NCBI GenBank assembly: GCA_026392275.1
Contig: JAPLCM010000093.1
Location: forward strand, 1 to 60,450
Direction of reading: 5' to 3'
DNA length: 60,450 bases
Source of the DNA: Actinomycetota bacterium
GTDB lineage: Bacteria > Actinomycetota > Thermoleophilia > UBA2241
The notes beneath the pieces were generated by a model. That model was given only the letters and a program-made list of their open reading frames with translations. It made no database searches and was not told the origin of the DNA. Positions 4,320-59,166 of the stretch are shown piece after piece. The first letter of the stretch is position 1, and each line of letters begins with the position of its first letter. The translations under genes were made by a program, and so were the position numbers.

Positions 4320-4329
4320 CGGGCGTGCG

Positions 4330-6303
<1,974 letters not shown>

Positions 6304-30767: not shown

Positions 30768-30910
30768 GCCTGTGACGCGACTCTGAAGGCGTCACGATGC
30801 CGTCAAGCGGCATCGCGCCTGTATCCCAGACAGATTTGCCTAAGTTCTGGTACGCTGCTGCCGATACAGCTCCTGCGGGGCAGCAGCGGACGACCTTGGC
30901 ACGAGAACTT

Positions 30911-33900: not shown

Positions 33901-35209
33901 GGCGGTGAGCGCCGAGATCATCAAGCCGCTCTTCTCCGCAGATCTCGTGGCCGCAGTGCGACACCATCACGAGCGGTACGACGGCAAGGGGTACCCCGAC
34001 GGACTCGCCGGCGACGACATCCCGGAACTGGCGCGCGCGATGTGCGTCATCGACTCCTACGACGCGATGTCGCTGCAGCGTCCGTATCGCGACGCGCGCA
34101 CCTACGAGGAGTGCCTTGTCGAACTGAAGGCGTGCCGCGGCACGCAGCTCGACCCCGGCTTGACCGACGCGTTCCTGCGCGTGCTGGAACGGCTGACCGG
34201 GCTTCGCGAGGTGGCGCGGCGCGCCGCCGCTGAGGCGGCGGCGCGCATCGATCCCGAGCGTCACGCGACGCTGCGCGACCCCCACGACGAGGCGCGTCCG
34301 GAGTACGCCAGGATCAAGAAGGTACTTCGGGAAACGCGCGACGCGTACCCCGAAGTGCGCTTCATGACCACGTCGGCGAACAGGGACGGGCGCACGGTGA
34401 TCGTGGTCGACGCCGAGGAAGCGGACGCACCCGAGCGCTCACCTCTTGGTGAAGAGGTGGTCGCCGACGACGCTATCGCCCAGGTGCTCTCCGGGCGCGA
34501 GATCGCCTCCAACGTGCTCTTCGTCGACAATTTCGGGGTGTGGGTCAATGGACTGGCGCCGCTGATCGGCGAGGACGGAGAGATCCTCGCGACCGTGGTG
34601 GCCGACGTGCCGGCCCTGAGCTCGAGCGGAGCGCGGAGTTTCGCGCGGATGACCACCGAGACCCCGGTTTCGACGCTGCAGGAGGCGGCCGTCCGCCTCA
34701 GCCGCGCCGAGATCGAGGCCATCACCGACGGTCTGACCGGACTGTACAACCACCGGTATCTTCACGAGCGCTTGACGGAGGAGTTGAGCCGGGCACGCCA
34801 CGAGAGTCACGGCGCGGCGCTCCTCTTCTGCGATCTCGACTTCTTCAAGGATTTCAACGATCGCCTGGGGCACGCCGCCGGCGACACTGCACTGCAGGCC
34901 ACGGCGCGCATCATCGAGAGCTGTACGCGGCGCGCCGACCTGGTCGCACGCTACGGCGGCGAGGAATTCGTCGTGGTGCTCCCCGGGGCGGCCGAAGCGG
35001 AAGCGGTGGAGATCGCCGGGCGCATCCGCACCGCCGTGGCCAAACACCATCACGAGAACGGGGGCTTGACGATCAGCATCGGCGTGGCCACGTATCCCGA
35101 GTCGGCCGCAAGCAAGGAGGGCCTGCTGGAGGCCGCGGACAGGGCGCTCTACGTGGCCAAACGGCTCGGCCGCGATCGCGTCGTGGCCGCCGGCGCCGCC
35201 GCCCGCTGA
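30911..35209 (+). CDS. HTH (excisionase/MerR-type) + 5 GAF + HD-GYP + sensor + GGDEF protein; the intact paralogue
   Basis: N-terminus LLTVAEAAAELGVSPATVRRACDAGVLTCRRSPGGHRRF. Five GAF-type motifs. HD-GYP motifs HDIGKIGVSD and HHERYDGKGYPDGL. An intermediate sensor-like domain (FVDNFGVWVNGLAPLIGEDGEILATVVADVPAL). GGDEF (RYGGEEF) with I-site RRAD. Confidence 0.85.
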   Translation: MTSGLLTVAEAAAELGVSPATVRRACDAGVLTCRRSPGGHRRFARAALAGMTRDRLLLSGRDKESGERAVLQALADLGEAASRWRDTPELLRDVAGLMLAATGAVTCDIYRREDEGVFRCLVSLDRDGPDEEAVGAVLRTTVWAVVREAFASGTVVHVEDRDDSRLTDEDREVYDEYGFASEACIPLLVQDRVVGVIELYGGRPHAFAAALDYMRGAGHVVAGALEKALLLAALEDRNRVLKELFDLAQLLATTYDVEELLHTVATRLLRTVRAAYCEIYQSDGEGYRCVVSVGGDGFPESYEGRFLDLAHNPTRASALAGQRSLVITDVEVSELTAGERDVLLAQGVHSELCIPLVVKGAVVGLIDLFGARPRDWQECIDFTAGVGQLVAGAMENADLLGHLEGSNRDLRTLVDGGLEFGSTLDAERVLLSIARRMRQATSAAACDISALDGESLHALVGIDGKDEVIEDFAGREFVVGDYPLTGQALRNGRPVVVDDVVSDARASSLERRSWERSGLRSGIIVPLINGAQIVGVTALYDSEPRSFGQLDLLRGLSQVAGQAIVNARLYSEVGRSAQRAALLNDVSAELTGALDTRQLLQTVAERVRAVADVSECSAFLLAGDDRLECVATSSLGESAEWALPGVFVGLERWPVTRLVIETRRAAAVTSLDDPRIDAGSRAWLAAHGVKSYLVAPLIARGMVAGALELTETRQERVFSGDEIGLVEAVCRVAGLAMENVLLIGDLERRNREAELLNEIARRTTASLDLGEIAEAAVAGLGRLVPIASYGLTLVERGEFAQAYGSRPSERPRAVSMAGDALGDVLERLRRERVIILDGADEGSMPEGHPAAAGSLSSAAIGLFDQHILSGVLMLEGASPGAFSAVDAGVLERVGVHLSLAANNARLYQEIKTLHLNNLKGLSTALNAKDYYTWGHAARVAAYTVLLGEQLGWEPEWAEQVREAAYLHDIGKIGVSDRVLVKQGPLNAEEWELMRQHPAVSAEIIKPLFSADLVAAVRHHHERYDGKGYPDGLAGDDIPELARAMCVIDSYDAMSLQRPYRDARTYEECLVELKACRGTQLDPGLTDAFLRVLERLTGLREVARRAAAEAAARIDPERHATLRDPHDEARPEYARIKKVLRETRDAYPEVRFMTTSANRDGRTVIVVDAEEADAPERSPLGEEVVADDAIAQVLSGREIASNVLFVDNFGVWVNGLAPLIGEDGEILATVVADVPALSSSGARSFARMTTETPVSTLQEAAVRLSRAEIEAITDGLTGLYNHRYLHERLTEELSRARHESHGAALLFCDLDFFKDFNDRLGHAAGDTALQATARIIESCTRRADLVARYGGEEFVVVLPGAAEAEAVEIAGRIRTAVAKHHHENGGLTISIGVATYPESAASKEGLLEAADRALYVAKRLGRDRVVAAGAAAR

Positions 35210-47139: not shown

Positions 47140-48594
47140 TCAGCGGTCCCAGTCGAAGTCGCGGGACTGCGTCTTCTCCCAGGATGCAGCCTCGTCGTCG
47201 CTGCGCTGCCCGAGCAGCGACTTGCTGAGGATCTCGGGCGGCTTCTGCGCCGCCACGCTGGGCGGCTCCGGCTCGGCCGGAGCCGCTTGCGGGGCGCCGG
47301 GCTGAGGTGCAGCCTGCGGTTCGGGCTGCGGGCGCGCGGTGGCGGCCCGGCTGATCTGCGCCGCGGCGAGCTGCACGGTGCCGTCGGCGCGCACGCCGGC
47401 GTTGGGGCGCAGGTCGGCGAGCTCGTCGTAGCCGCGGTCGACCATGCGCACGCCGCCGCCCTCGGAGTCGACGTGGAAGCGGTACCAGCCCATCGACCAC
47501 ATGAACGTGACCACCGTGGTCTCGCCGTCGGAACCGACGTGCACAGACGGCAGGCCGAGTTGTTCGTTGGTCTCCGCGATCTTGTGCGGGACGCGGCTGA
47601 CGTTGAGAAGGTCGACGCCGCGCTGCAGGATGGTCAGGGCGGCCGCCTCGGCTTCGAGTTCCGCGGTCGTCGGCGCGGACACGGGCGCCTCCGCGGGGGA
47701 AGCAGGTGCGGCGGCCGGCCCGTCAGCGAGGTCCGCTTTGGGCTCCGTGGGCGTCTCGGCGACCAGGGCCGCCGTCTCCGCGGCTATCGACGAGACGACT
47801 GCCGGTAGGGCCTCGGCATCGGCCGGCGCGCTCGGCGCCGGCTGCGGCTCCGGGGTGAGGGTCGTCTCGGGGTCGCCGGCCGGCTCGGCGTCGGCGGCCG
47901 GCGCCGGCGGGACCGGGGACTCCGCGAGCTGCTCGTCGGTGATCGCGGGGATGGGCTGCGTGTCTTCGACGACCCCAGCCGGCATCTCACGCTGCGGCGG
48001 CTCGACCGGCACGACGTCGTCCGGCGACGTCGCCGGCGAGGGCGCCGGTGTCTCGTCGCGCAACGCCGCGAACTCGGCGGCGAACTCGGCGGGCGTCTCG
48101 CCCCAGGTGCGCTCTCCGGGCTCGGAGGAGTCGCCGGTCGGCGGTGCGGCGATGGCCGCCGCGACGACCGCGGGACCCGCGGCAGACGGGATGAGCGGTT
48201 CGGCCGGCACGGTCGCGCCTTGCGCGCGTGCCAGCCGGCCGGAGAGCTCCTGTTTCTCTGCCTCGACGCGCGCGAGCTGCGCCTGCAGACGCTCGATCTC
48301 CGCATCCTTGTCTTTGAGCGCCTTCCAGAAGGCGTTGCTCTCGGTGTGGGGATCGCGCTCGTCCTCATGCGTCTCGCGCTCGCGCTCGGTGTCGGCGGGC
48401 ACAGGGCTCGCGGGCACGGGCTCGGCCCCCCTCGGGGCATGGGTCTGCCCACAGAGCGAACAGATGATCAGTTCATCGCCGTTGGCGTCGATCACTTTCT
48501 GGGTGCGCTCACCGGCGAGGAGCGTGCGCCCACATTCCGCGCAGACTGCCTGGTCTGGCTCGTCCTTACCTTGACCGAAGATGCGTCCAAACAT
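47140..48594 (-). CDS. Hypothetical zinc-ribbon / coiled-coil / Pro-Ala-Glu-rich protein with a globular C-terminal domain
   Basis: From ATG 48594: CAECG..(23 aa)..CSLCG zinc ribbon, coiled coil KDAEIERLQAQLARVEAEKQEL, and a long low-complexity PAE-rich spacer. C-terminal domain: TTVVTFMWSMGWYRFHVDSEGGGVRMVDRGYDEL. Confidence 0.55.
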   Translation of the reverse strand: MFGRIFGQGKDEPDQAVCAECGRTLLAGERTQKVIDANGDELIICSLCGQTHAPRGAEPVPASPVPADTERERETHEDERDPHTESNAFWKALKDKDAEIERLQAQLARVEAEKQELSGRLARAQGATVPAEPLIPSAAGPAVVAAAIAAPPTGDSSEPGERTWGETPAEFAAEFAALRDETPAPSPATSPDDVVPVEPPQREMPAGVVEDTQPIPAITDEQLAESPVPPAPAADAEPAGDPETTLTPEPQPAPSAPADAEALPAVVSSIAAETAALVAETPTEPKADLADGPAAAPASPAEAPVSAPTTAELEAEAAALTILQRGVDLLNVSRVPHKIAETNEQLGLPSVHVGSDGETTVVTFMWSMGWYRFHVDSEGGGVRMVDRGYDELADLRPNAGVRADGTVQLAAAQISRAATARPQPEPQAAPQPGAPQAAPAEPEPPSVAAQKPPEILSKSLLGQRSDDEAASWEKTQSRDFDWDR

Positions 48595-48672
48595 CGTCAC
48601 TTCCGTGTGAGTGCCGCCCCCAGGGGCCGGAAAAGTGCTGCAAGAAGGCACATGATAGCAGAACCGGCCCGA

Positions 48673-48918
48673 CTATCCCCCGTCGTCCTCGTCGTCCGCG
48701 TCCTCTGGCATGGCGTCGTACTCGGCGAGCACGCTGCGGGCGCGGTCCGCGTCTTCCTCGCGCACGAGGATGTGATAGGGGTTCGCCGTGGGCGTCGGGT
48801 ACGCGCCTGGGGCGCCGCCCCCGTCGGTCATGGCCTCGATGCCGGCTTGCTCGAGGACTCCCCTGACGATGTTGGCGAGTACTGCGTCGCAGACGGTCAT
48901 CACGGGCACCAGCTCCAT
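48673..48918 (-). CDS. DUF2007-like small protein
   Basis: MELVPVMTVCDAVLANIVRGVLEQAGIEAM...YHILVREEDADRARSVLAEY with an acidic tail. Confidence 0.6.
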   Translation of the reverse strand: MELVPVMTVCDAVLANIVRGVLEQAGIEAMTDGGGAPGAYPTPTANPYHILVREEDADRARSVLAEYDAMPEDADDEDDGG

Positions 48919-48990
48919 GGCTTCACCTCGCGATCCGGTTCGGGGGCGTCGCGGCGCGGCGCATCGGCAGTATACCCGCGCTGCGTCGTG

Positions 48991-50160: not shown

Positions 50161-50646
50161 TCAGACGAAATCCCGCGACGCCTCGCGACGCCAGGCCCTC
50201 GCGAAGACCTCACGCTCTTCGCCGTCTTCGCCTTCGGTGACGCGCACCTTGTTCTCGACGAAGAACGTGGGCTCATCGCAGCTCATCTGCCCCAGGGTGA
50301 CGATGTGGAAACGACCCTGGTCGCCCCACCACAGGACGCTCTCCACGCTCACGCGGACCGTGGCGGACAGGGGGGCGCCTTCTCGCACGCCGTAGATCAC
50401 CGTGTTCCACTCCTCGCTCTCCCATCCGTTGGGCACGATGACGTTACCGCCGTCCACGTAGTGGTACGTCCAGGAGACGCCGCCGTCGGTCAGGTCGCGC
50501 ACGTAGCGGCGATCGCCGGGCCCGCCGCCGACGGTCTGCTCGCCGAGGCCCGGGGGCACCAGCGGCACCTCGAAGGCCGGCAGGGTGTCGTCCGGTTCGC
50601 CGCCGCCACGCAGGTCGACGCGCAGAGGAGCCACGTCGCGTACCAT
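50161..50646 (-). CDS. Hypothetical protein
   Basis: 161-aa ORF with balanced, protein-like composition (WTYHYVDGGNVIVPNGWESEEWNTVIYGV...). I recognise no motif. Confidence 0.5.
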   Translation of the reverse strand: MVRDVAPLRVDLRGGGEPDDTLPAFEVPLVPPGLGEQTVGGGPGDRRYVRDLTDGGVSWTYHYVDGGNVIVPNGWESEEWNTVIYGVREGAPLSATVRVSVESVLWWGDQGRFHIVTLGQMSCDEPTFFVENKVRVTEGEDGEEREVFARAWRREASRDFV

Positions 50647-51090: not shown

Positions 51091-51249
51091 CGCCGGTACG
51101 CCGCTGCGCCTCCGGTGGGTTTCGCGCGAGGCCGGCGGCGTCTTCTCGCGGGTCGGTCGACCTCGGGGCCTGTGGTAAAGTTGAGGCGCGTGGCGGCTGC
51201 AACGCAGCCCCGCGACTGCCGATCACCCACCTCAGGAGAGCACCAGCGT

Positions 51250-54021
51250 ATGTGCGGCATCTTCGGTTTCGTCGGTTCACCGGACCGCCAGCTCCTCGGC
51301 CGCATGGCCGCCGCCCTCGTGCATCGCGGTCCCGACGACGCCGGCTCGTTCGAGCGGCCTGCCGTCAGCCTCGGTCACCGCCGCCTCAGCATCATCGATC
51401 GCGAAGGCGGTCACCAGCCCATCGCCAACGAAGACGAGACCATCTGGCTGGTGTACAACGGCGAGGTCTACAACTACCGTGAACTGCACGCCGAGCTTGT
51501 GGCCGCTGGGCACGACTTTCGCACCAGCAGCGACAGCGAGGTCATCGTCCACGCATATGAGGAGTGGGGCCCGGGCTGCGCGGCACGCTTCAACGGCATG
51601 TGGGCGTTCGCCATCGCCGACCTTCGTGAGGGCGACGGTAAGCTCGTCTTCAACCGCGACCATTTCGGCATCAAGCCCCTGTTCTATGCGCGCTCGCCGC
51701 AGACGGGCCGGCTGCTCTTCGCCAGCGAGATCAAGGCGCTACTGCAGGACCGCGACCTCAAGGCGACGCCCGACGATCAGCTGGTGTACGAGTTCCTCGA
51801 GCATGGCCTGCACGACCACCGCGCCGAGACGATGTTCGCCGGTATCTATCACGTGCCGGCGGCCACGTGGATGGAGATCCCACTCGGCTCGCCGCCGGCG
51901 CCGGCGAGCGCAGCTGCCGCCTCCGGCGCCGGCCCCGGCCTGCTCACCGGACCGCTCGCGAGTACGCCCTACTGGATGCCCGAGCTGCGCACCGACGGGC
52001 GCCCCGACCCGGCCCTGTTCCGCCGCCTCTTCCGCACCAGCGTCGAACGGCGGCTTGTGTCGGAAGTCCCCGTCGGCTCGTGTCTCTCGGGCGGCCTCGA
52101 CTCGACGTCGATAGTCGCCTTCATGAGCGAGCTGCTCACGGAGGACGCCCCGGACGCGGCTTCGCTGCGCGGCCAGCTCAAGACCTTCAGCGCCGTGTTC
52201 GACGGCGACCCTATCGATGAGCGCGACTACATCGAGGTCGCCGTCGAGAGCACCGGCGCCGACACGACGTACACGAACCCCACGTCCGCGGAGTTCATCG
52301 ACGAGCTGCGCGAGTTCATCTGGCACCAGGAAGAGCCCTTCGTCAGCACCGGCCCGTACGCGCAGTGGTGCGTCATGCGCTCCGCCCGCGAGCAGGTGAC
52401 GGTGCTGCTCGACGGCCAGGGCGGCGACGAGCTGCTCGCCGGCTACGTGCCGTATCAGCTCGTCTACCTGCGTCAGCTTCGCAAGGAGGGCCGCTACGCC
52501 GAGTTGCGCCACGAGACCGCGAAGTCGCGTGACGTCCTCTGGCCGCTGATCCGCCGCCGGCTCTCCCAGCGGAGCAAGCGCCTGGACACGCGGCGTCTGC
52601 TCAAGCCCGGCTTTGTGAGCCGCGTCAAAGACCCCCAGGGCGGCGTGTCGCGGACGCAGCTCAAGGAGCGTCTGCTGCAGGACCTGCTTACCTACTGCCT
52701 GCCCTGCCTGCTCCGCTACGAGGATCGCAACTCCATGGCGTTCAGCGTCGAGTCGCGGCTGCCGTATCTCGACCAGGAGTTCGTCGACTACCTGCTCACG
52801 TTGCCCGACGACGCCATCATCCGCGAAGGCTGGAGCCGCTGGATCCTTCGCGCGGGCCTCAAGGGCACGCTTCCCGAGAAGATCCGCCTGAGGCGCTGGA
52901 AGGTCGGGTTCACGACCCCGGAGATGCGCTGGATCAAGGCGCGCCGGGCGGCCTTCACGAGTCTCTATCAGTCGCCGACGTTCCAGTCGCGGCCGTACTG
53001 GGACGGCACGGCGCTCGTCGGCGCGTTTCGCGACTGCTGTCGTGGCAAGGTCGAGGAGTCGCCGCTCTTCTGGCGCACCGCCAACGTCGAGCTTTGGCTG
53101 CGCGAGCTCTGCGACCGCAGCGTGGTGCTCGAGGATGCCGACATCGAGGCGGCCCTCACCGCGCCGGCCGAGATCGGGCCCAAGCGCCGCGGCACGATGG
53201 CCGCGGCCGCCGACCCGCGCGTGCCGGCGTTGCTGGCCGCCGCTGGGGGCGCGGCCGCCGCGGCGGGCACGGCCGAGGCGCAGCGTCTCCTCGGCGCGTA
53301 CGCCCCCCACCCAGGCAAGCACCTGTTCGCGGCCACTCGAGGGTACGTGTTCGCGCGCCTGCCCATCAAGACCAGTGTGGTCTCGCGCGGCGACGAGCTT
53401 GCCGAGGTGTGCCGTGAGTACGTAGCTCCCCACGTGAAGCCCGGCGATATCGTCGCCATGGCCGAGAACGCGGTCTCCGCCGCCCAGGGCCGCAGCTTCC
53501 CCATCGACGACATCCACCCCACCTGGCTCGCCACCAAGCTCGGCAACGCGGTCACCAAGACGCCCCACGGCATCGGCCTGGGCACGCCGCAGACGATGCA
53601 GCTCGCCATCGACCAGGTCGGGGCCCCGCGCATCGTCGTCGCGGCGATCGCGGGCGCGGCCGGGCGCCTCGTGCGGCAGAAGGGCATCTTCTACCTCGTC
53701 GCCGGCCGCGAAGTGGAGGCGATCGACGGCCCGGCCTACAACCGGCTGCCGCCGCACAACACCTCCGCCAGCCTCGGGCCCGCCGACCCCGACGGCGTCT
53801 CCACGCATCTCAGCGCCGTCCTCAGCGAGGCTGCCGGTGGCACGGTGCACGTGGCCGTCATCGACGCCAGCGATCTGGCCGTCACCGTCCTCGGAGCATC
53901 CCCGGGCACCGACCGCGAGCTCGTAGGCGTCCTGATGCGCGACAACCCACTGGGCCAGGGCACGGAGCAAACGCCCGTGTGCGTCATGCGGCCGCTCGGG
54001 CCGCTGCCTTCGCGGAGTTAG
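51250..54021 (+). CDS. Glutamine-hydrolysing asparagine synthetase (AsnB family) fused to a C-terminal CofE/F420-0:gamma-glutamyl-ligase-like domain
   Basis: MCGIFGF places the Cys2 nucleophile of a class-II amidotransferase. PP-loop SGGLDSTS. AsnB-like body runs to about 53130, followed by an Ala-rich linker. From about 53314: GDELAEV..KPGDIVAMAENAVSAAQGR, LGPADPDGVS and LMRDNPLGQGTEQTPVCVMR, resembling CofE. CAGGAGAG Shine-Dalgarno upstream of ATG 51250. Confidence 0.75.
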   Translation: MCGIFGFVGSPDRQLLGRMAAALVHRGPDDAGSFERPAVSLGHRRLSIIDREGGHQPIANEDETIWLVYNGEVYNYRELHAELVAAGHDFRTSSDSEVIVHAYEEWGPGCAARFNGMWAFAIADLREGDGKLVFNRDHFGIKPLFYARSPQTGRLLFASEIKALLQDRDLKATPDDQLVYEFLEHGLHDHRAETMFAGIYHVPAATWMEIPLGSPPAPASAAAASGAGPGLLTGPLASTPYWMPELRTDGRPDPALFRRLFRTSVERRLVSEVPVGSCLSGGLDSTSIVAFMSELLTEDAPDAASLRGQLKTFSAVFDGDPIDERDYIEVAVESTGADTTYTNPTSAEFIDELREFIWHQEEPFVSTGPYAQWCVMRSAREQVTVLLDGQGGDELLAGYVPYQLVYLRQLRKEGRYAELRHETAKSRDVLWPLIRRRLSQRSKRLDTRRLLKPGFVSRVKDPQGGVSRTQLKERLLQDLLTYCLPCLLRYEDRNSMAFSVESRLPYLDQEFVDYLLTLPDDAIIREGWSRWILRAGLKGTLPEKIRLRRWKVGFTTPEMRWIKARRAAFTSLYQSPTFQSRPYWDGTALVGAFRDCCRGKVEESPLFWRTANVELWLRELCDRSVVLEDADIEAALTAPAEIGPKRRGTMAAAADPRVPALLAAAGGAAAAAGTAEAQRLLGAYAPHPGKHLFAATRGYVFARLPIKTSVVSRGDELAEVCREYVAPHVKPGDIVAMAENAVSAAQGRSFPIDDIHPTWLATKLGNAVTKTPHGIGLGTPQTMQLAIDQVGAPRIVVAAIAGAAGRLVRQKGIFYLVAGREVEAIDGPAYNRLPPHNTSASLGPADPDGVSTHLSAVLSEAAGGTVHVAVIDASDLAVTVLGASPGTDRELVGVLMRDNPLGQGTEQTPVCVMRPLGPLPSRS

Positions 54022-54221
54022 CCGCGGCGCGTCTCGGCGTGACCGTTAGGCGCCGGTGAAGACCGCTCCCAAAGTGGCGCTGCTCAGCCTCGTCGTCGCG
54101 GGCGACGATAGCGCACGCGCAGGTATCGGGGTGCTTGATCGTGCCCTCCAAGGGGGGTGACCGCCCCGGGCCTTGAGGTGTATAAGAAGTGGTCGGCGCC
54201 GGCGTAGGGGGAGGACAGGCA

Positions 54222-55166
54222 GTGAGCATCGTCGAGGTCCAGGAGCTGCGCAAGCAGTACGACCCGCCCAAGGGCGTGCTGGCCGTCGACGGGGTGAGCT
54301 TCGACATTGCCGAGGGCGAGATCTTCAGCCTCCTCGGGCCCAACGGGGCCGGCAAGAGCACCACTATCTCGATGCTGAGCTGCCTGCTGCGCCCGAGCGG
54401 CGGCGACGCCCTCGTCGCCGGGCACTCGGTCGTGAGCGACTCGCAGGCGGTCAAGGAGACCATCGGCGTCGTGCCGCAGGACATCGCCCTGTACCCGGAT
54501 ATGAGCGCTCGCGAGAACCTCGTCTTCTGGGGCAAGATGTACGGCCTTGCCGGGGCCGAGCTGCACGCACGCGTGGACGAGGTGCTCGAGCTCATCACGC
54601 TGGTCGACCGGCAGAAGGACCGCATCGAGAAGTTCAGCGGTGGCATGAAGCGTCGGGTCAACATCGGCGTCGCGCTGCTGCACAAGCCCAAGGTGCTCTA
54701 CCTCGACGAGCCGACGGTGGGGATCGACCCGCAGAGCCGGCGGTCGATCCTCGACGGCATCCTCGCGCTGCGCGACCAGGGCATGACGATCCTCTACACC
54801 ACGCACTACATGGCCGAGGCGCAGGAGCTCAGCGACCGCATCGCCATCGTCGACCACGGCAAGATGATCGCCATCGGGACGCACGAGGAGCTCGTGAAGA
54901 TCGTCGGCCAGAGCGCCCGCGTCACCGCACGCGTCGACCACTATCTCGAGGGCATGGCCGAGCGCTGGCGCGAGGTCAAGGGCGTCGAGAAGGTGGACGT
55001 CGAGGAGGACGAGGCCGTCCTGCTCACCGAGGATCCCAACGAGGTGCTGCCGCGGCTGTTCGAAGCGGCGGCCGAGGCCGGCTCGCGCATCACGGAGATC
55101 AACGTCACCGAGCCGAACCTCGAGATGGTGTTCCTGCACCTGACCGGGCGCGCGCTGCGCGAGTGA
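54222..55166 (+). CDS. ABC transporter ATP-binding protein (ABC-2 exporter type)
   Basis: Walker A GPNGAGKST, signature FSGGMKRRV and Walker B LYLDEP. GTG 54222 with GGGGGAGGA upstream. Confidence 0.9.
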   Translation: MSIVEVQELRKQYDPPKGVLAVDGVSFDIAEGEIFSLLGPNGAGKSTTISMLSCLLRPSGGDALVAGHSVVSDSQAVKETIGVVPQDIALYPDMSARENLVFWGKMYGLAGAELHARVDEVLELITLVDRQKDRIEKFSGGMKRRVNIGVALLHKPKVLYLDEPTVGIDPQSRRSILDGILALRDQGMTILYTTHYMAEAQELSDRIAIVDHGKMIAIGTHEELVKIVGQSARVTARVDHYLEGMAERWREVKGVEKVDVEEDEAVLLTEDPNEVLPRLFEAAAEAGSRITEINVTEPNLEMVFLHLTGRALRE

Positions 55167-55188
55167 TCCGGACGCCTCCGCTCACGTC

Positions 55189-56430
55189 GTGACCAAGATC
55201 CTCGCCATCGCCTGGAAGGACCTGCGCAGCACGTTGCGCAACGTGCCGGCGCTGGTGATGATGCTGGCCGCGCCGCTGGCGCTCGCCGCACTGCTCGGCT
55301 TCGCCTTCGGCGGCAGCGGCGGCTTCGACATCGCCGCGACCAAGGTCGTGGTGGCGAATCTGGACAAGGGCGGCGCCGATGCCGGCCAGAACGCCGGCGC
55401 CGCCATCCAGAGCATCCTCACGAGCAAGGACCTCAAGGATGTGCTCGAGACGAGCACCCGGAGCTCCGAGGTCGCCGCCCAGCAGGCCGTCGACGACGGC
55501 AAAGCGGCGGTGGCCGTCATCGTGCCGCAGGACTTCAGCGCCGTCGTCTTCGGAAGCGACCCGGCGGCGACGAGCCAGGTCGAGCTCTACGAGAACCCGA
55601 CCAGCGAGATCGGGGGCTCCATCGTCGAGGGCGTGGTCGGCCAGGTGCTCGCCGACTTCAACGGCGCCCGTGCGGCCGCGGCCGGCGCCGTCGCTCTCGC
55701 GTCGCAGGGCAACGACCCCGCCGACCCGCAGATGCTCGCGGCCAGCGCCGCCGGGCAGTTCAGCCACTCGGGTGGGGTGTCGGCCGGCCTCCGGATCAGC
55801 CAGCGCTCGCCGCAGGCCGGCGCGACCGAGAAGGAGGTCAGCGTCACCGGCTCCATCCTCTCCGGCATGATGATCTTCTTCATGTTTTTCGGCGCGGCCA
55901 ACGTGGCGCGCACCATCCTGACCGAAGACCGTGACGGCACGATGCCGCGCCTCTTCACCACGCCGACGCGGCACGGCCTGATCATCGGCGGCAAGTTCGT
56001 CGCCGTCTTCCTCACGGTCCTGCTGCAGGCGATCGTCCTGCTCATCGCCGGTCGCCTGATCTTCGGCATCCAGTGGGGCCGCCTCGACGCCGTCGTCCTG
56101 CTCACGGTGGTCGCCGCCGGCGTGGCCGGTGGCCTCGCGCTCCTCGTCATCTCGTTCGCCAAGACGCCGGCCCAGGCGGGCGCGATCGGCTCCGGTATCT
56201 ACCTCGTCCTCGCGCTGCTCGGCGGCAACTTCACCGGCACGGCGCAGACCAGCGGCGTGTACGGCGTCGTCCAGAAGTTCACGCCCAATGGCTGGCTCAT
56301 CGAGGGCTGGGATACAACGCTGCGCGGCGGCGGGGCGCTGGATATCCGCTGGCAGGTGCTGGTCCCGCTGGGATTCGCCGTCGCCTTCTTCTTCTTCGCC
56401 GTGCTGCGTATGCGGAGGCGGTTCGCATGA
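55189..56430 (+). CDS. ABC-2 type transporter permease
   Basis: N-terminal TM helix, a large extracytoplasmic loop, then five C-terminal TM helices. Follows the ATPase. Confidence 0.75.
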   Translation: MTKILAIAWKDLRSTLRNVPALVMMLAAPLALAALLGFAFGGSGGFDIAATKVVVANLDKGGADAGQNAGAAIQSILTSKDLKDVLETSTRSSEVAAQQAVDDGKAAVAVIVPQDFSAVVFGSDPAATSQVELYENPTSEIGGSIVEGVVGQVLADFNGARAAAAGAVALASQGNDPADPQMLAASAAGQFSHSGGVSAGLRISQRSPQAGATEKEVSVTGSILSGMMIFFMFFGAANVARTILTEDRDGTMPRLFTTPTRHGLIIGGKFVAVFLTVLLQAIVLLIAGRLIFGIQWGRLDAVVLLTVVAAGVAGGLALLVISFAKTPAQAGAIGSGIYLVLALLGGNFTGTAQTSGVYGVVQKFTPNGWLIEGWDTTLRGGGALDIRWQVLVPLGFAVAFFFFAVLRMRRRFA

Positions 56431-56440
56431 GGTGCCCGGC

Positions 56441-57649
56441 ATGAGACTCGCCGCTATCCTCGCGCGCAAGGACCTGGTGCAGACGGTGCGGGACAAGCTG
56501 TCGTTCATCTTCATCCTCGTCATGCCGCTGGCTTTCACGCTGTTCTTCGGGCTGCTTTTCGGCGGCGGTGGCAGCACGGACAAGCTGCCGCTGGCCGTGT
56601 GGGACGCGGACGGCGGCGCGGCCGCGCAGCAGCTGGTCGCCGCGCTCGACAAGTCCGCGGCCGTCCGCGTGGTCGTCAAGCAGGGGAACGCGTTCGAGAC
56701 CTGGATGGCCGACGAGCGCGCCGCCGCGGGCCTGCTCATCCCGAAGGGCTACAGCGCCGCGGTGGCCTCCGGGAAGAAAGCCGAGCTCACGATCGTCTCC
56801 ACCCAGGGCTCGAACGGCGCCGCGACCGCCGCCAGCGAGGTGCGTTCGCTGGCCGGCGAACAGGTTGCGGTCGAGCTGGCCTCGCGGGCGGCTGCGGAGT
56901 CTGTCTGGGCCACAAGGAGCATGCCGTCCGGCGCGTGGGACGGTGTGGTCAAGCAGTCCGCCACTCAGGTACGGCCGGTCGTCGCACAGGCTCTGGCTCA
57001 TCCGGCCGTGCGCACCAAGGTCGTCGAGGCCGGCGCCGCCGCCGGCCAGACGCCGAGCGGGTTCGTCCTCAGTTCCCCCGGCATGATGGTGAACTTCATC
57101 CTGTTCAGCCTCGTGACAGCCGGCATCGCGCTCATCACCGAGCGCCAGAACGGCACGCTGCAGCGCCTCATGACCACGCGGCTCCGCCGCTGGGAGCTCA
57201 TCGGCGGCAAGGCGGCCGGCATGTTCTGTCTCACCTTCGCGCAGCAGATCCTGCTGATGGGCGTCGCACAGCTCTTCTTCGGGGTGGACTACCTGCGCGA
57301 TCCGGCGGCGCTGCTCGTGATGATGGTCTCGCTCTCGCTGGTGGCGAGCACGCTGGGCCTGCTCCTTGCCTCAGTGCTCAAGAGTGAGCAGGCGCTGATC
57401 GCCACCACGGTGCTCGTCTCGATGTCCGTCGCCGCGCTCTCTGGCGCCTGGTTCCCCCTCGAGATCACCGGGCCGGCGTTCCAGACCGTCGGCCACCTGC
57501 TGCCGACCGCGTGGATCCTCGACGGGCTGCGCGGGATCGTGGTGCGCGGGTTCGACGTCGCCGACGTGCTGCCCCCGTTCGCCGTCTCCCTCGCGTGGGC
57601 CGCGGGATTCTTCGCGCTCGCCGTCTGGCGCTTCCGGCTGTCGGATTGA
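56441..57649 (+). CDS. ABC-2 type transporter permease (second subunit)
   Basis: MRLAAILARKDLVQTVRDKLSFIFILVMPLAF. Same topology as the preceding permease. ERQNGTLQRLMTT motif. Confidence 0.75.
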   Translation: MRLAAILARKDLVQTVRDKLSFIFILVMPLAFTLFFGLLFGGGGSTDKLPLAVWDADGGAAAQQLVAALDKSAAVRVVVKQGNAFETWMADERAAAGLLIPKGYSAAVASGKKAELTIVSTQGSNGAATAASEVRSLAGEQVAVELASRAAAESVWATRSMPSGAWDGVVKQSATQVRPVVAQALAHPAVRTKVVEAGAAAGQTPSGFVLSSPGMMVNFILFSLVTAGIALITERQNGTLQRLMTTRLRRWELIGGKAAGMFCLTFAQQILLMGVAQLFFGVDYLRDPAALLVMMVSLSLVASTLGLLLASVLKSEQALIATTVLVSMSVAALSGAWFPLEITGPAFQTVGHLLPTAWILDGLRGIVVRGFDVADVLPPFAVSLAWAAGFFALAVWRFRLSD

Positions 57650-57710: not shown

Positions 57711-58025
57711 TCACTCCTTTCGCGGCTTGATGCTCGCGTCCTTGGGCAGGGCGAGGCTTGCCGCGACCTCGATGGCTTTGAGGATCCCCGACGGGACGGG
57801 GCAGGCCGGGTGCACCAGGTGTTCGGCGGCGAGGCGAAGAGTCACGGGCCCCTCGTCGCGGTAGCTGATCTCACGGTACGGGTCCGCTTCAGTGAGCTGC
57901 TCGGCCAGCTTCTGTACGTAGCCGCACGTGGTCTCGAACTCAAGCCGCACGGTGCGGCCGTCCATCTTGGTGTGGACGGTGGTGCAGAAGCCGCAGATTC
58001 CGCTGTCGATCTCGGCTGACGCCAT
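57711..58025 (-). CDS. Hypothetical small Cys-containing protein
   Basis: 104 aa from ATG 58025 (AAGGAGAG upstream). SGICGFCTT, TTCGY and HPACPVPSGILKAIEVA suggest a conserved metal- or redox-type small protein. Confidence 0.55.
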   Translation of the reverse strand: MASAEIDSGICGFCTTVHTKMDGRTVRLEFETTCGYVQKLAEQLTEADPYREISYRDEGPVTLRLAAEHLVHPACPVPSGILKAIEVAASLALPKDASIKPRKE

Positions 58026-58188
58026 GGTCTCTCCTTGGTCGCGTGCGGGAGGTGCGCCCTTCATTCCCGCGACGGCCGCCCGCCATGCGTCGGCCGCGCC
58101 GCCGGCAGAGGCGGCCGGTGCGGTACCATCTACGCGCCCTTCGCCAGCGGCCATGTAGGCCGTTGCGCAAGCCTGAGGAGGATCGGCT

Positions 58189-59166
58189 GTGAGCGAGATG
58201 ACCCAGGCTGACCCCGAGAAGGCCCGGCCCTCCAGGTCCCCACCTGGACCCAGGACCTCCGTAGTGCCCACGATCGCCGTCGTCTGCGTACTGGCCTGCG
58301 TGCCGCTCGTGTGGCGCAACGACTACATCGTCAGCGTGCTGACCCTGGGCGTGCTCTCCAGCCTGATGGCGCAGAGCTGGAACCTCACCATCGGGCTGTG
58401 TGGCATCTGGAACCTGGGGCAGCTGGCGATCATCGCCATCGGCGGCTACGCCACGGGGATCCTCACCGTCGAGCTCGGCATCTCGGCCTGGCTGGCTCTG
58501 CCGGCAGGCGTGGTCGCGGGCGGCCTGGCCGCGGCCATCATGGTGCTGCCCGTCATCCGCCTGCGCGGCATCTACGCGGCGCTGCTGACCTTCGCGCTGG
58601 CGGAGGTCGTGCGCCTGCTCATCCTCGCCGACGGTACCGGCCTCACCGGCGGCCGAGCCGGTCTCTCGGGCGTCCCGGGGCTGTTCGATCGCCTCTCGTA
58701 CTCGGGGAGCCTGCGCGCCTCCTTCTGGCTTGCGCTGGTGCTCTCCGCGGCGGTCATGCTCCTCGTGCGCGGCATGGTGGCCTCGCCGTTGGGTACCGGC
58801 GTCGACCGACGCCGTCAGGCCATTGTGGCGACTCTCTTCTCGGGCCTCGTGGCTGGCCTCGCCGGCGGGTTGTACGTGACCTACCACCACGGCATCACCC
58901 CGAACTTCATGGCGCTTCGCCCCCTGGGCCTCCTCCTGATCATGGTCATCGTCGGCGGTCTGGGGACGGTGCGCGGCCCGGTCATCGGCGCTCTCGTCGT
59001 CACCGTCCTCGGCGAACTGCTGGGCGAAGCCGCCCTGTGGCGGCTGCTTGCTCTGGGCGCCCTGCTTCTCCTCGTCCTCCTGGTCTGGCCCGCAGGGATC
59101 GACGGGCTGCTCCAGCGTTGCCTCGACAAGATGCGCGCCTGGAGGAAGGGCGGCAAGAAGACCTGA
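58189..59166 (+). CDS. LivM-like branched-chain amino-acid ABC permease; orphan and divergent
   Basis: RLRGIYAALLTFALAEVVRLLI, TGGRAGLSGVP and MVIVGGLGTVRGPVIGA match the LivM pattern. The segment normally carrying the AIRE(D/N)E motif appears to be missing. No livH/G/F/K partners in the window. Confidence 0.55.
   Translation: MSEMTQADPEKARPSRSPPGPRTSVVPTIAVVCVLACVPLVWRNDYIVSVLTLGVLSSLMAQSWNLTIGLCGIWNLGQLAIIAIGGYATGILTVELGISAWLALPAGVVAGGLAAAIMVLPVIRLRGIYAALLTFALAEVVRLLILADGTGLTGGRAGLSGVPGLFDRLSYSGSLRASFWLALVLSAAVMLLVRGMVASPLGTGVDRRRQAIVATLFSGLVAGLAGGLYVTYHHGITPNFMALRPLGLLLIMVIVGGLGTVRGPVIGALVVTVLGELLGEAALWRLLALGALLLLVLLVWPAGIDGLLQRCLDKMRAWRKGGKKT

What the first reader, a model, noticed from the sequence alone, without database searches (positions are those of the whole stretch)
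51250..54021. Fusion of a glutamine-dependent asparagine synthetase with a CofE/F420-ligase-like domain
A single 923-aa ORF joins two parts through an Ala-rich linker. The first is a complete AsnB-type enzyme, with the Cys2 glutaminase nucleophile and the SGGLDS PP-loop. The second is a ~235-aa domain whose motif order mirrors F420-0:gamma-glutamyl ligase, as recalled from the A. fulgidus CofE sequence. The motifs are GDxxAE, GD(I/V)V..xE.AVSxAQGR, PxDPDG and a C-terminal ..G.EQTP.V.(V/M)R. Both halves make or amidate carboxyl-amide bonds. The fusion therefore suggests a two-step pathway such as gamma-glutamylation followed by amidation. I do not know of a characterised example.
Basis: partly seen in the sequence, partly recalled or inferred. 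Interest (0 to 1): 0.7.

Follow-up and report, generated by a model that had tools for sequence, protein, structure and literature searches.

The report
AsnB amidotransferase fused to CofE-like domain
This is a real, widely conserved two-enzyme fusion of Gram-positive-type bacteria whose second half has the fold of the F420 glutamate ligase but is almost certainly not about F420; its partners in other genomes point to an unrecognised step in cell-wall (peptidoglycan) precursor modification.

Summary
Window 51250-54021 (+) is one 923-aa gene. It encodes a class-II glutaminase, a PP-loop AsnB-type synthetase, a helical connector and a ~235-aa domain with the CofE fold. The fusion is not an artefact: more than 100 collinear homologues exist, and natural split versions occur.

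The F420 reading is not supported. The domain belongs to a separate, uncharacterised CofE-fold subfamily found in at least 594 species, including CPR bacteria and gut Clostridia. It fails the CofE equivalog model. It appears to lack the F420-contacting beta-hairpin. It has Gln/Asn where CofE has Glu208.

The AsnB half is probably not an asparagine synthetase. It naturally carries the substitution (E. coli E348, human E364, to Gln) that inactivates human ASNS. It has no acidic counterpart of D384, and it has a ~60-aa insertion in the substrate region.

Elsewhere the CofE-like module is fused to MurF, to MurNAc-L-Ala amidase, to a PepV-type dipeptidase, to a GNAT, to PlsY and to PgsA. It sits upstream of murJ or a MOP flippase, and its split form lies between yggT and divIVA.

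Best hypothesis (about 0.45): a bifunctional enzyme that modifies carboxylates of peptidoglycan precursors. No biochemistry exists for it.

The parts
51234..51239 (+). Shine-Dalgarno AGGAGA, 10 nt upstream of the start codon
   Evidence: Read directly from the sequence. It supports ATG 51250 as the start rather than the upstream GTG at 51115.
51250..54021 (+). Whole gene: 923-aa AsnB-like amidotransferase fused to a CofE-like domain, stop codon included
   Evidence: The full-length AF2 model has pLDDT 87 and pTM 0.89.
51250..51894 (+). Class-II (Ntn) glutaminase domain, residues 1-215, with the Cys2 nucleophile
   Evidence: GATase_7 and GATase_6 hits. R44/R45, N70-G71-E72 and D95 are invariant or nearly so. 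They match the Gln-binding network listed for ASNS in PMC6748925.
52018..53103 (+). AsnB-type PP-loop synthetase domain, residues 257-618
   Evidence: Asn_synthase 3.4e-71. TIGR01536 scores 420 bits against a cutoff of 267. Closest PDB entries are 7YLZ and 1CT9.
52087..52104 (+). PP-loop SGGLDS, residues 280-285
   Evidence: Invariant or nearly invariant in 33 family members. It aligns with the E. coli AsnB SGGLDS.
52417..52419 (+). Gln390 in DGQGGDE, at the position of E. coli AsnB Glu348 (human ASNS Glu364)
   Evidence: Alignments. At least 90% conserved in the family. E364Q is inactive in human ASNS (PMC6748925).
52444..52752 (+). Region between the GY motif and ESRxPxLD (about residues 399-501), which holds a ~60-aa insertion relative to E. 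coli AsnB
   Evidence: MAFFT alignment with E. coli AsnB. The model shows helices 400-412, 416-425, 427-443 and 471-497 here.
53122..53319 (+). Ala-rich connector, residues about 625-690; variable in sequence but predicted helical
   Evidence: Low conservation and gaps. Helices 650-664 and 668-683 have pLDDT 80-96.
53320..53994 (+). CofE-fold domain of a distinct subfamily, residues about 691-915
   Evidence: PF01996; profile against PDB CofE 1.5e-8; AF2 pLDDT 88; Foldseek matches CofE only; hhalign 96.6%. Signature residues E739, Q746, R748, D826, D872, D875, D898-N899-P900, Q903 and T908-P909 are conserved in 123 diverse members.
54189..57649 (+). Downstream same-strand ABC-2 exporter: ATPase 54189-55166, permeases 55189-56430 and 56444-57649. 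Possibly co-transcribed; its membership in the system is uncertain.
   Evidence: Pfam hits. No terminator-like site lies between the genes. The arrangement is conserved in Thermoleophilia-type relatives, but these are close relatives.

Best explanation
**Shown.** The gene encodes one polypeptide with three catalytic-looking modules held together by a structured helical connector.
1. An N-terminal Cys2 glutaminase.
2. An AsnB-type PP-loop synthetase.
3. A C-terminal domain with the CofE fold that belongs to a separate, widespread and uncharacterised subfamily.

**Inferred mechanism.**
- The glutaminase hydrolyses Gln.
- Ammonia travels to the PP-loop site. There ATP adenylates a carboxylate of the substrate and ammonia converts it to an amide.
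- That carboxylate is not free L-aspartate, because the Glu348 and Asp384 equivalents are absent.
- The CofE-like module keeps the two Asp residues that align with CofE Asp109 and Asp150. It most likely uses a nucleotide triphosphate and a divalent metal to activate a second carboxylate as an acyl phosphate, then joins it to an amine (an amino acid or ammonia), as CofE does.

**Inferred substrate, by guilt by association.** The most likely substrate is a cytoplasmic or lipid-linked peptidoglycan precursor, through the free carboxylates of its stem peptide (D-iGlu alpha-COOH, mDAP epsilon-COOH, or an acidic branch residue). The fusion would then perform a 'ligate and amidate' or a double carboxylate-capping modification. 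Known precedents are LtsA/AsnB1 (mDAP amidation), MurT/GatD, and the two-step D-Asp ligase plus AsnH amidation; the last two are named from my own knowledge. The domain is not an F420 tail ligase.
For: **Architecture is real and conserved:**. pTM is 0.89 with a helical connector.

**Gene fission confirms that the two halves work together.** In L068 and L061 a 632-640-aa AsnB-like gene, 46-48% identical to the N-terminal part, lies directly upstream of a 233-aa CofE-like gene; in L068 their stop and start overlap.

**The CofE fold is confirmed:**

**The subfamily has its own active-site-like signature.** It is conserved across 123 members at 50% identity or less, whatever the fusion partner. 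Forty-eight complete stand-alone forms exist. The module is therefore autonomous and probably catalytic.

**It is not F420-related.**
- TIGR01916 scores 31-37 bits against a cutoff of 180.65.
- Position 208 is always Gln or Asn.
- The hairpin that contacts F420 (PMC10861534) has no counterpart in the register I derived or in the model.
- The domain is present in Saccharibacteria, Staskawiczbacteria, Intestinibacillus and Oscillospiraceae.
- No canonical cofE was found in 1.5 Mb of flanking sequence.

**The AsnB half is not a bona fide asparagine synthetase.**
- Q390 stands in for E348/E364, and E364Q is inactive.
- D384 has no acidic counterpart, and there is a ~60-aa insertion.
- Loss of the Asp-binding residues plus an extra loop are the published hallmarks of mDAP-amidating AsnB homologues (PMC8554201).

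**Cell-envelope associations of the CofE-like module.**
- MurF fusion inside a mur operon.
- Three independent Amidase_3 fusions, one with 25 members and none with a signal peptide.
- murJ immediately downstream in 5 of 7 CPR loci.
- A MOP flippase downstream in Bacillota locus L088.
- The split pair lies between yggT and divIVA in the ftsZ-sepF cluster.
- Fusions to a PepV/Sapep dipeptidase, a GNAT, PlsY and PgsA.
- A PlsC-like neighbour in Acidimicrobiia and a GNAT neighbour in Dormibacterota.
- All credible host phyla are monoderm or Terrabacteria lineages.
Against: - There is no biochemical evidence of any kind.
- In the window itself, and in most AsnB-fused loci, the neighbours are not cell-wall genes. 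They are an AP endonuclease, an ABC-2 exporter, GluRS, an amino-acid permease and GGDEF-EAL proteins.
- The fusion-partner list is noisy. It also includes adenylate kinase, AhpC, HD, TPR and FTHFS, and several fusions are singletons on short contigs.
- CPR loci may share synteny by descent, so the five murJ cases are not five independent events.
- L061 and L068 are probably one lineage.
- CofE's Glu208 and Thr151 are replaced, so NTP-dependent ligase chemistry is itself an inference. The identity of these residues as metal ligands rests on my recollection of Nocek et al. 2007, which I could not read.
- Known mDAP amidotransferases are, from memory, SGEG-type (they keep the Glu), so Q390 is not explained by that analogy.
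- I could not place the N-terminal half in a tree with LtsA, AsnB1 or AsnH.
Confidence: 0.45

Rival explanations
1. Small-molecule peptide-amide pathway, an analogue of N-acetylglutaminylglutamine amide (NAGGN) synthesis. The CofE-like domain would replace the ATP-grasp ligase of Ngg and join two amino acids. The AsnB-like half would amidate the product, as AsnO does. A GNAT would acetylate it and a metallopeptidase would degrade it. The product would be a cytoplasmic solute or signalling molecule.
For: - The partner set of the CofE-like module includes an AsnB-like amidotransferase, a GNAT (fused in CPR, adjacent in Dormibacterota) and an M20 dipeptidase. This mirrors the NAGGN trio of TIGR03104, TIGR03103 and TIGR03106; the composition of that trio is from my own knowledge.
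- TIGR03104 is among the NCBIfam hits of the N-terminal half, at 268 bits, below its cutoff.
- The window gene is followed by an exporter.
- An amino-acid permease and GluRS are neighbours in Bacillota.
Against: - TIGR03104 is far below its cutoff (268 against 570).
- GNAT and peptidase are never seen together with the AsnB fusion in one locus.
- This reading does not explain the MurF, Amidase_3, murJ and divIVA associations.
- CPR bacteria have minimal metabolism and are unlikely makers of a dedicated osmolyte.
Confidence: 0.2
2. Housekeeping asparagine synthetase with an accessory domain. The N-terminal 640 aa make asparagine. The CofE-like domain is a non-catalytic regulatory, nucleotide-sensing or oligomerisation module.
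For: - TIGR01536 (asn_synth_AEB) is passed, at 420 bits against a cutoff of 267.
- Every database names the protein asparagine synthase.
- The gene is monocistronic-looking, and its neighbours vary between phyla as they do for a housekeeping gene.
- Some mDAP-type AsnB homologues can complement Asn auxotrophy (PMC8554201).
Against: - Q390 replaces the Glu whose E-to-Q change abolishes activity in human ASNS.
- There is no acidic counterpart of D384.
- NF006949 (AsnB proper) scores 256 against a cutoff of 499.
- The CofE-like module exists alone and in many other fusions, and keeps a conserved polar signature at CofE active-site positions. That argues for an autonomous catalytic function.
Confidence: 0.1
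3. One reading: an F420-related enzyme that gamma-glutamylates F420-0 or an F420-like cofactor and then amidates the tail.
For: - The PF01996 hit and the CofE fold.
- One Chloroflexi locus has cofG/cofH about 8 kb upstream and a luciferase-like gene nearby.
- Many host phyla (Actinomycetota, Chloroflexota) include F420 producers (PMC8498797).
Against: - The protein fails the CofE equivalog models.
- The F420-contacting hairpin and the R234 tail appear to be absent, and Glu208 is replaced.
- The domain is present in CPR bacteria and gut Clostridia.
- No cof or fbi gene is adjacent in about 85 loci, other than the cofG/cofH pair about 8 kb away in one locus.
- No amidated F420 is known; this last point is from my own knowledge.
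Confidence: 0.04
4. Assembly or annotation artefact that merges two genes.
For: Natural split versions exist (L068, L061). Some database entries have out-of-frame C-termini, for example P0074.
Against: - More than 100 independent full-length collinear homologues come from different projects and phyla.
- The ORF is uninterrupted and has uniform GC3.
- The single-chain model is confident.
Confidence: 0.01

Closest known systems
CofE / FbiB N-terminal domain (F420-0:gamma-glutamyl ligase; PF01996; PDB 2G9I, 2PHN, 7ULD)
   Same: - Same fold: Foldseek E 4e-11, TM about 0.6, with no other significant PDB fold.
- Shared motifs GDDLAE, GD..v....v.s.a.GR and P.DPDG, and a C-terminal TP.v.v.R strand.
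- The Asp residues aligned with CofE D109 and D150 are 98-99% conserved.
- By analogy, the likely chemistry is activation of a carboxylate by NTP and metal, followed by amide-bond formation.
   Different: - 17-27% identity.
- TIGR01916 scores 31-37 bits against a cutoff of 180.65.
- Gln/Asn replaces Glu208 and Ala/Val replaces Thr151. New invariant residues are D875, D898-N-P and Q746.
- About 25 residues corresponding to the domain-swapped hairpin that covers F420 appear to be missing, and about 20 extra residues are present in the middle.
- The subfamily occurs in lineages not known to make F420 and is never next to cofC/cofD.
mDAP-amidating AsnB homologues (C. glutamicum LtsA, L. plantarum AsnB1, B. 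subtilis and L. monocytogenes AsnB)
   Same: - Same two-domain AsnB architecture, about 630-640 aa, longer than E. coli AsnB.
- No acidic counterpart of the Asp-binding residue, and an extra segment in the substrate-binding region. These match the hallmarks stated in PMC8554201.
- They act on peptidoglycan lipid intermediates (PMC7920481 abstract).
- They occur in Gram-positive lineages.
   Different: - None of them carries a CofE-like domain.
- This family has Gln at the E348 position.
- Phylogenetic placement with the proven enzymes was not tested.
- I could not verify that the insertion is homologous to their loop.
E. coli AsnB / human ASNS (EC 6.3.5.4)
   Same: - Cys nucleophile, Gln-binding network and SGGLDS PP-loop.
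- The protein passes TIGR01536.
   Different: - E348/E364 is replaced by Gln, a change that kills human ASNS.
- D384 has no acidic counterpart, and there is a ~60-aa insertion.
- NF006949 is below its cutoff.
Two-step 'ligate then amidate' or 'activate and amidate' peptidoglycan modifications: D-Asp ligase plus AsnH in Lactococcus/Enterococcus, and MurT/GatD (named from my own knowledge)
   Same: The logic is the same: a carboxylate-activating ligase is paired with a glutaminase-dependent amidation on the stem peptide. AsnH is an AsnB-family enzyme.
   Different: The ligases there are ATP-grasp or Mur-ligase folds, not CofE folds. The proteins are separate, not fused. No sequence relationship to the C-terminal domain was tested or is expected.
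NAGGN 'trio' (AsnO, TIGR03104; Ngg GNAT plus ATP-grasp, TIGR03103; M42 hydrolase, TIGR03106)
   Same: The combination is the same: AsnB-like amidotransferase, peptide ligase, GNAT and metallopeptidase. These are the partners seen for the CofE-like module.
   Different: - TIGR03104 is far below its cutoff.
- The ligase has a different fold.
- The partners are never all in one locus here.

Membership tests
AsnB-type class-II glutamine amidotransferase superfamily (GATase_7 + Asn_synthase) | N-terminal Cys nucleophile directly after the initiator Met | tested here: met
   MCGIFGF at an SD-supported ATG at 51250. Homologues start the same way.
AsnB-type class-II glutamine amidotransferase superfamily (GATase_7 + Asn_synthase) | Gln-binding network (Arg, Asn-Gly-Glu, Asp) and PP-loop SGGxDS | tested here: met
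   R44/R45, N70-G71-E72, D95 and S280-G-G-L-D-S285 are invariant or nearly so. The residue roles are from PMC6748925.
AsnB-type class-II glutamine amidotransferase superfamily (GATase_7 + Asn_synthase) | Curated HMM thresholds | tested here: met
   PF00733 241 bits, PF13537 155 bits, TIGR01536 420 bits against a cutoff of 267.
Bona fide asparagine synthetase (EC 6.3.5.4) | Catalytic Glu (E. coli E348, human E364) in the SGEGSDE motif | tested here: not met
   The query has DGQGGDE; Q390 is at least 90% conserved. E364Q is inactive in human ASNS.
Bona fide asparagine synthetase (EC 6.3.5.4) | Asp-binding Asp and Arg (E. coli D384 and R387, human D400 and R403) | tested here: not met
   No acidic counterpart of D384 exists in any register (LPCLLRYEDR). 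R489 may correspond to R387, which is ambiguous.
Bona fide asparagine synthetase (EC 6.3.5.4) | AsnB equivalog model NF006949 | tested here: not met
   256 bits against a cutoff of 499.
Bona fide asparagine synthetase (EC 6.3.5.4) | Asp-dependent Asn formation | not testable with these tools
   This needs an enzyme assay or complementation of an asnA asnB mutant.
CofE / F420-0:gamma-glutamyl ligase | CofE fold | tested here: met
   AF2 pLDDT 88. Foldseek matches only 2PHN, 7ULD and 2G9I, at E 4e-11 to 2e-9 and TM about 0.6.
CofE / F420-0:gamma-glutamyl ligase | Pfam PF01996 gathering score | tested here: met
   45.5 bits (49.1 for the isolated domain) against 25, but only profile positions 2-150 of 218 are matched.
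CofE / F420-0:gamma-glutamyl ligase | Equivalog models TIGR01916, NF009809 and NF009810 | tested here: not met
   30.8-36.6 bits against 180.65, 21-25 against 274, and 15 against 304.
CofE / F420-0:gamma-glutamyl ligase | Metal-ligand set D109, D150, T151 and E208 (assignment from memory of Nocek et al. 2007) | tested here: inconclusive
   D826 and D872 are conserved at 99% and 98%. T151 is replaced by Ala or Val. E208 is replaced by Gln or Asn in all 123 members. The ligand assignment could not be checked in a paper.
CofE / F420-0:gamma-glutamyl ligase | F420-contacting elements: the domain-swapped beta-hairpin, G153-C155 and the partner subunit's R234 (PMC10861534) | tested here: not met
   - In the register I derived, the ~25 CofE residues between GISG and ADEIAA have no counterpart.
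- The model goes from strand 878-883 directly to helix 889-895.
- G153 is replaced by the invariant D875.
- There is no conserved Arg tail.

CofE / F420-0:gamma-glutamyl ligase | Occurrence with F420 biosynthesis genes or in F420 producers | tested here: not met
   - The domain is found in Saccharibacteria, Staskawiczbacteria, Intestinibacillus and Oscillospiraceae.
- No cof or fbi gene is adjacent in about 85 loci, other than cofG/cofH 8 kb away in one locus.
- No canonical cofE occurs in 1.5 Mb of flanks.
- A whole-genome census was not possible.
mDAP-amidating AsnB homologues (LtsA / AsnB1 type) | Loss of the Asp-binding D and R (PMC8554201) | tested here: inconclusive
   The D is lost. The R is ambiguous.
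mDAP-amidating AsnB homologues (LtsA / AsnB1 type) | [quoted passage not shown] | tested here: inconclusive
   A ~60-aa insertion relative to E. coli AsnB lies between residues about 399 and 501. Homology to the LtsA/AsnB1 loop was not verified because no reference sequences were at hand.
mDAP-amidating AsnB homologues (LtsA / AsnB1 type) | Phylogenetic clustering with proven members; amidation of mDAP in muropeptides | not tested
   This needs reference sequences and muropeptide LC-MS.

The most novel reading that the evidence does not exclude
The C-terminal domain defines a previously unrecognised enzyme family: CofE-fold, NTP-dependent carboxylate-amine ligases that act on peptidoglycan precursors in monoderm bacteria and CPR. 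Such an enzyme could, for example, add an amino acid or amine to the alpha-carboxyl of D-iGlu or to mDAP, or re-ligate stem peptides to the MurNAc lactyl group. That lactyl carboxylate is chemically analogous to the lactyl carboxylate CofE acts on in F420-0. In this gene the ligase is hard-wired to an AsnB-type amidotransferase so that the two modifications are made in one pass. This would assign genes to stem-peptide substitutions whose enzymes have, to my knowledge, never been identified.
Probability: 0.3. Interest if true: 0.85.

Novelty: new variant of a known kind. Interest (0 to 1): 0.62.

Why it matters
- At least 594 species carry this CofE-fold subfamily, and hundreds of genomes carry the AsnB fusion. 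All of these proteins are annotated simply as 'asparagine synthase' or 'F420 ligase-like', and both labels are probably wrong.
- If the cell-envelope link is right, this is a new peptidoglycan-precursor modifying activity. It would be shared by Actinomycetota, Bacillota, Chloroflexota, Dormibacterota and the minimal-genome CPR bacteria. It would be relevant to lysozyme and antibiotic susceptibility and to cell-wall diversity.
- It would also show that the 'novel fold' of CofE has a second, more widespread function, which may shed light on the unclear evolutionary origin of CofE noted in PMC8498797.
- In practice it warns against inferring F420 biosynthesis from PF01996 hits, and asparagine prototrophy from TIGR01536 hits.

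Tried and rejected
1. **Artefact or frameshift.** Rejected.
2. **Single-sequence PDB search with the C-terminal domain.** It gave only E about 0.02. A 20-sequence profile was needed.
3. **hhalign register for the last ~50 residues.** It is unreliable. I used instead a gapless register anchored on TP.V.V.R and IPAVVVR, with the Af-CofE sequence recovered by an X-padded PDB query.
4. **Source for the CofE metal ligands.** I could not read Nocek 2007 or Bashiri 2016, and the supplements of PMC10861534 do not name the residues. The D109, D150, T151 and E208 ligand assignment therefore remains from memory.
5. **Literature searches for the fusion or for 'CofE-like' proteins.** Nothing relevant was found.
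6. **A conserved operon partner of the fused form across phyla.** None was found. Neighbours are clade-specific.
7. **The ABC-2 exporter downstream of the window gene.** It is conserved only among Thermoleophilia-type relatives. The clustering of ABC ATPases from other phyla with it is generic similarity, so I do not count it as evidence.
8. **GluRS upstream in Bacillota and in one Saccharibacteria locus.** Noted, but I found no mechanistic link.
9. **The PF03807 'F420_oxidored' hit in L068.** It is the usual ProC Rossmann domain, not evidence for F420.
10. **Whole-genome co-occurrence with F420 genes, murT/gatD or ltsA.** This could not be computed with the tools and caps available.

Full report

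Yes. Window 51115..54021 (+) is a single open frame. The biologically sensible start is the ATG at 51250. It gives Met-Cys-Gly-Ile-Phe-Gly-Phe, and the Cys must be N-terminal after Met removal. It is preceded by AGGAGA at 51234-51239, and homologues start the same way.

Pfam finds GATase_7 at residues 43-166, Asn_synthase at 257-618 and F420_ligase (PF01996) at 706-874. The last hit scores 45.5 bits against a gathering score of 25. They align with the real Af-CofE sequence, which I recovered from the PDB search.

The F420_ligase-family hit is significant. There is also no frameshift or assembly join:
- More than 100 clusters at 90% identity from many projects are collinear over the full length at 54-92% identity.
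- GC3 is uniform along the frame.
- The junction is conserved in length, though variable in sequence.

The long antisense ORF at 51739-53970 is the usual by-product of a 70% GC genome.

**2. Anatomy**

The glutaminase module keeps the Gln-binding network (R44/R45, N70-G71-E72, D95). The synthetase module keeps the PP-loop S280-GGLDS (residue roles as listed for ASNS in PMC6748925).

The full-length AlphaFold model, built on 33 sequences, has mean pLDDT 87 and pTM 0.89. The prediction is therefore a compact three-module protein, not beads on a string. I could not inspect the coordinates.

**3. The C-terminal domain has the CofE fold but is not CofE**

A 20-sequence profile of the domain hits only A. 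fulgidus CofE in the PDB (E 1.5e-8). hhalign gives 96.6% probability. The AF2 model of the domain (pLDDT 88) matches only CofE structures in Foldseek, at E 4e-11 to 2e-9, TM about 0.6 and 17% identity. The next best hit is at E 0.7. Fold membership is therefore established.

The domain nevertheless fails every CofE equivalog model: TIGR01916 scores 31-37 bits against a cutoff of 180.65, and NF009809 scores 21-25 against 274.

I built a residue map using the recovered Af-CofE sequence. Native numbering was checked against the 'G153-C155' statement in PMC10861534.

| Af-CofE | Window protein | Conservation in 123 diverse members |
|---|---|---|
| D109 (NAGID) | D826 | 99% |
| D150 | D872 | 98% |
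| T151 | A873 | Ala or Val |
| G153 | D875 | 93% |
| E208 (MGEGG) | Q903 | Gln 87%, Asn for the rest of the aligned members, never Glu |

New near-invariant residues are E739, Q746, R748, D898-N899-P900 and T908-P909. That D109, D150, T151 and E208 are the Mn ligands is my recollection of Nocek et al. 2007. I could not read that paper.

[quoted passage not shown] It adds that G153-C155, F92 and the partner subunit's R234 frame the chromophore. In the register I derived, the ~25 residues that form that hairpin have no counterpart. The model runs from strand 878-883 straight into helix 889-895, and there is no conserved Arg tail.

**4. A large, separate subfamily**

An HMM of the domain, run against 1.84 billion representative proteins, finds 1655 proteins at E<1e-3 and 316 at E<1e-30. 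Among the best 150 hits:
- 46 are AsnB fusions.
- 48 are complete stand-alone proteins of about 230-260 aa.
- 36 carry other extensions.
- 20 are fragments.

The hosts are Thermoleophilia (the window's own clade by synteny and identity), Acidimicrobiia, Actinomycetes, Bacillota/Clostridia (Symbiobacterium, Intestinibacillus, Oscillospiraceae), Chloroflexota, Dormibacterota and Patescibacteria (Saccharibacteria, Staskawiczbacteria). Single MAGs labelled Deltaproteobacteria or Acidobacteriota share the Thermoleophilia synteny and are probably mis-binned.

CPR bacteria and gut Clostridia are not known F420 producers; this is established knowledge, and the distribution is reviewed in PMC8498797. 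No canonical cofE-type sequence occurs in the 1.5 Mb of flanking DNA that I fetched. The only F420 genes seen anywhere near are cofG/cofH, 8 kb from the gene in one Chloroflexi MAG.

**5. The two halves belong together**

In L068 and L061, an AsnB-like gene of 632-640 aa (46-48% identical to the N-terminal part of the query) lies immediately upstream of a stand-alone CofE-like gene. In L068 the start of the CofE-like gene overlaps the stop of the AsnB-like gene. Fused and split forms of the same pair are classic evidence of a functional partnership.

**6. The AsnB half is probably not an asparagine synthetase**

Alignment with E. coli AsnB shows DGQGGDE where AsnB has SGEGSDE. Q390 therefore replaces E348, and it is at least 90% conserved in the family.

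PMC6748925 reports that the equivalent Glu-364 of human ASNS is conserved in known asparagine synthetases. It also reports that the E364A and E364Q variants are inactive. The pocket for the substrate's amino group (Glu-364, Asp-367, Asp-400) is only one-third retained: D393 is present, but D384/D400 has no acidic counterpart.

The family also has a ~60-aa insertion between the GY motif and ESRxPxLD. [quoted passage not shown] The present protein fits that description in outline. I could not verify loop homology or phylogenetic placement.

The closest solved structure is not an asparagine synthetase at all. It is the hydroxyamidotransferase 7YLZ.

**7. What does the CofE-like module work on?**

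*The fused form.* Context is clade-specific and uninformative.

| Clade | Neighbours |
|---|---|
| Thermoleophilia, including the window | AP_endonuc_2 (divergent) and an ABC-2 exporter |
| Bacillota | GluRS, amino-acid permease or peptidase S9 |
| Acidimicrobiia | HAD-acyltransferase |
| Dormibacterota | GNAT and GGDEF-EAL |

*The module's other incarnations.* These are more telling.
- (a) P0240 is a bona fide MurF (TIGR01143, 322 bits against a cutoff of 289) with the CofE-like domain at its C-terminus. It is preceded by an overlapping Mur-ligase gene, so it sits in a mur operon.
- (b) Three separate clusters at 50% identity (P0242, P0250, P0261) are N-acetylmuramoyl-L-alanine amidase (Amidase_3) fusions. 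One cluster at 90% identity has 25 members on many contigs. None has a signal peptide or TM helix by hydropathy, so they look cytoplasmic.
- (c) In Bacillota locus L088, the gene after the amidase fusion is a Polysacc_synt/MOP-family flippase.
- (d) In 5 of 7 CPR loci, from Saccharibacteria and from Staskawiczbacteria and relatives, the next gene is murJ.
- (e) The split pair in L068 and L061 lies on the same strand in the order ftsZ, ylmE, sepF, yggT, AsnB-like, CofE-like, divIVA, which is the distal dcw cluster.
- (f) Further partners are a PepV/Sapep dipeptidase, a GNAT (fused or adjacent in CPR, adjacent in Dormibacterota), PlsY and PgsA.

*Noise.* Adenylate kinase, AhpC, HD, TPR and an FTHFS fragment also appear. 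Several of these fusions are singletons.

Taken together, the recurrent theme is the cell envelope and, within it, the peptidoglycan stem peptide. AsnB-family enzymes are already known to amidate that same molecule: LtsA acts on lipid intermediates (PMC7920481), and the B. subtilis and Listeria AsnB enzymes are further examples (PMC5485061, PMC8554201).

**8. Proposed mechanism**

Shown:
- The domain composition.
- Conservation of the catalytic-type residues.
- The partnership of the two halves.
- The absence of F420 hallmarks.

Inferred:
- Gln hydrolysis supplies ammonia to the PP-loop site, which adenylates and amidates a substrate carboxylate other than that of free Asp.
- The CofE-like module activates a second carboxylate with NTP and metal, and couples it to an amine.
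- The shared substrate is a peptidoglycan precursor.

Which carboxylates are modified, and whether the CofE-like site uses an amino acid or ammonia, cannot be told from sequence. I put about 0.45 on this overall reading. I put about 0.9 on the narrower statement that this is a real, conserved bifunctional enzyme whose CofE-like half is unrelated to F420.

**9. Rivals**

- A NAGGN-like small peptide-amide pathway (0.2). It explains the GNAT, peptidase and amidotransferase partners. It does not explain the MurF, amidase, murJ and divIVA associations.
- A housekeeping asparagine synthetase with an accessory domain (0.1). It conflicts with Q390, with the missing acidic counterpart of D384, and with the module's autonomous, conserved signature.
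- F420 tail modification (0.04).
- Artefact (0.01).

**10. Novelty and score**

Both superfamilies are known. The architecture and the CofE-fold subfamily are uncharacterised as far as the searchable literature shows, and NCBIfam has no model for the subfamily. I rate this as a new variant of a known kind.

Interest is 0.62. A specialist in cell-wall or F420 biochemistry would be surprised that the CofE fold has a second, broader distribution tied to mur and dcw genes, and the hypothesis is directly testable. The functional assignment, however, rests on association only.

Noticed in passing
window 23818-23915 (+); 4306-6303 (+); 2946-4319 (+): A tRNA-Sec gene (Rfam 69.4 bits; ARAGORN anticodon TCA) and a SelB elongation factor lie in the same window. 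The ORF just upstream of selB may be selA. The organism therefore uses selenocysteine.
   Followed up: partly
window 6308-11086 (-), 20557-23757 (-), 30776-35209 (+): Three giant signalling proteins of 1067-1593 aa, built from multiple GAF domains plus GGDEF. Two of them also carry an HD-GYP-type HD_5 domain. This is an unusual density of c-di-GMP enzymes within 30 kb.
   Followed up: no
window 47140-48672 (-) and 50161-50646 (-): Two ORFs of 510 aa and 161 aa have coding-like GC3 but no Pfam match. A domain-less protein of similar size (468-489 aa) sits at the same position in relatives L002-L004, so the larger ORF is probably a conserved unknown protein. The 161-aa ORF overlaps the 5' end of the AP-endonuclease gene and may not be real.
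   Followed up: no
window 48673-48990 (-), 57711-58322 (-): DUF2007 and DUF6951 proteins flank the locus. They keep the same positions in Thermoleophilia-type relatives.
   Followed up: no
P0074, P0075, P0077, P0082, P0084 (homologues): Several database homologues of about 930 aa lack the PF01996 hit. For P0074 I saw that the C-terminal third is an Arg/Pro-rich out-of-frame translation, which points to a frameshift error in the MAG rather than a different architecture. I infer the same for the others.
   Followed up: partly
L001, L007, L047, L055 (Bacillota) and L064 (Saccharibacteria): A full-length glutamyl-tRNA synthetase gene lies one or two genes upstream, on the same strand as the CofE-like gene, in two distant phyla. 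It could be coincidence or a hint of a Glu-related substrate.
   Followed up: partly
L001 vs L088 (Bacillota): The upstream block (ferredoxin, aldehyde:ferredoxin oxidoreductase, a 77-aa ThiS-like ORF) is the same in both loci. It is followed by the AsnB::CofE-like fusion in one genome and by the Amidase_3::CofE-like fusion in another. The N-terminal partner seems to have been swapped at a comparable locus.
   Followed up: no
L005 / L050 (Chloroflexi MAG DBS2-1.bin66), locus coordinates 1-2241: cofH- and cofG-like radical SAM genes lie about 8 kb upstream of the fusion, and a luciferase-like monooxygenase lies 2 kb downstream. This is the only F420-related neighbourhood seen among about 85 loci.
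   Followed up: partly
P0230, P0235, P0266 (representatives): One subgroup has an N-terminal TM helix and an unannotated ~180-aa region in front of the CofE-like domain. This suggests a membrane-anchored form.
   Followed up: no
L084 (Microbacterium sp.), 1087-2103 (-): The stand-alone CofE-like gene is next to a 'sugar-transfer associated ATP-grasp' gene (PF14397), which is another carboxylate-amine ligase type.
   Followed up: no
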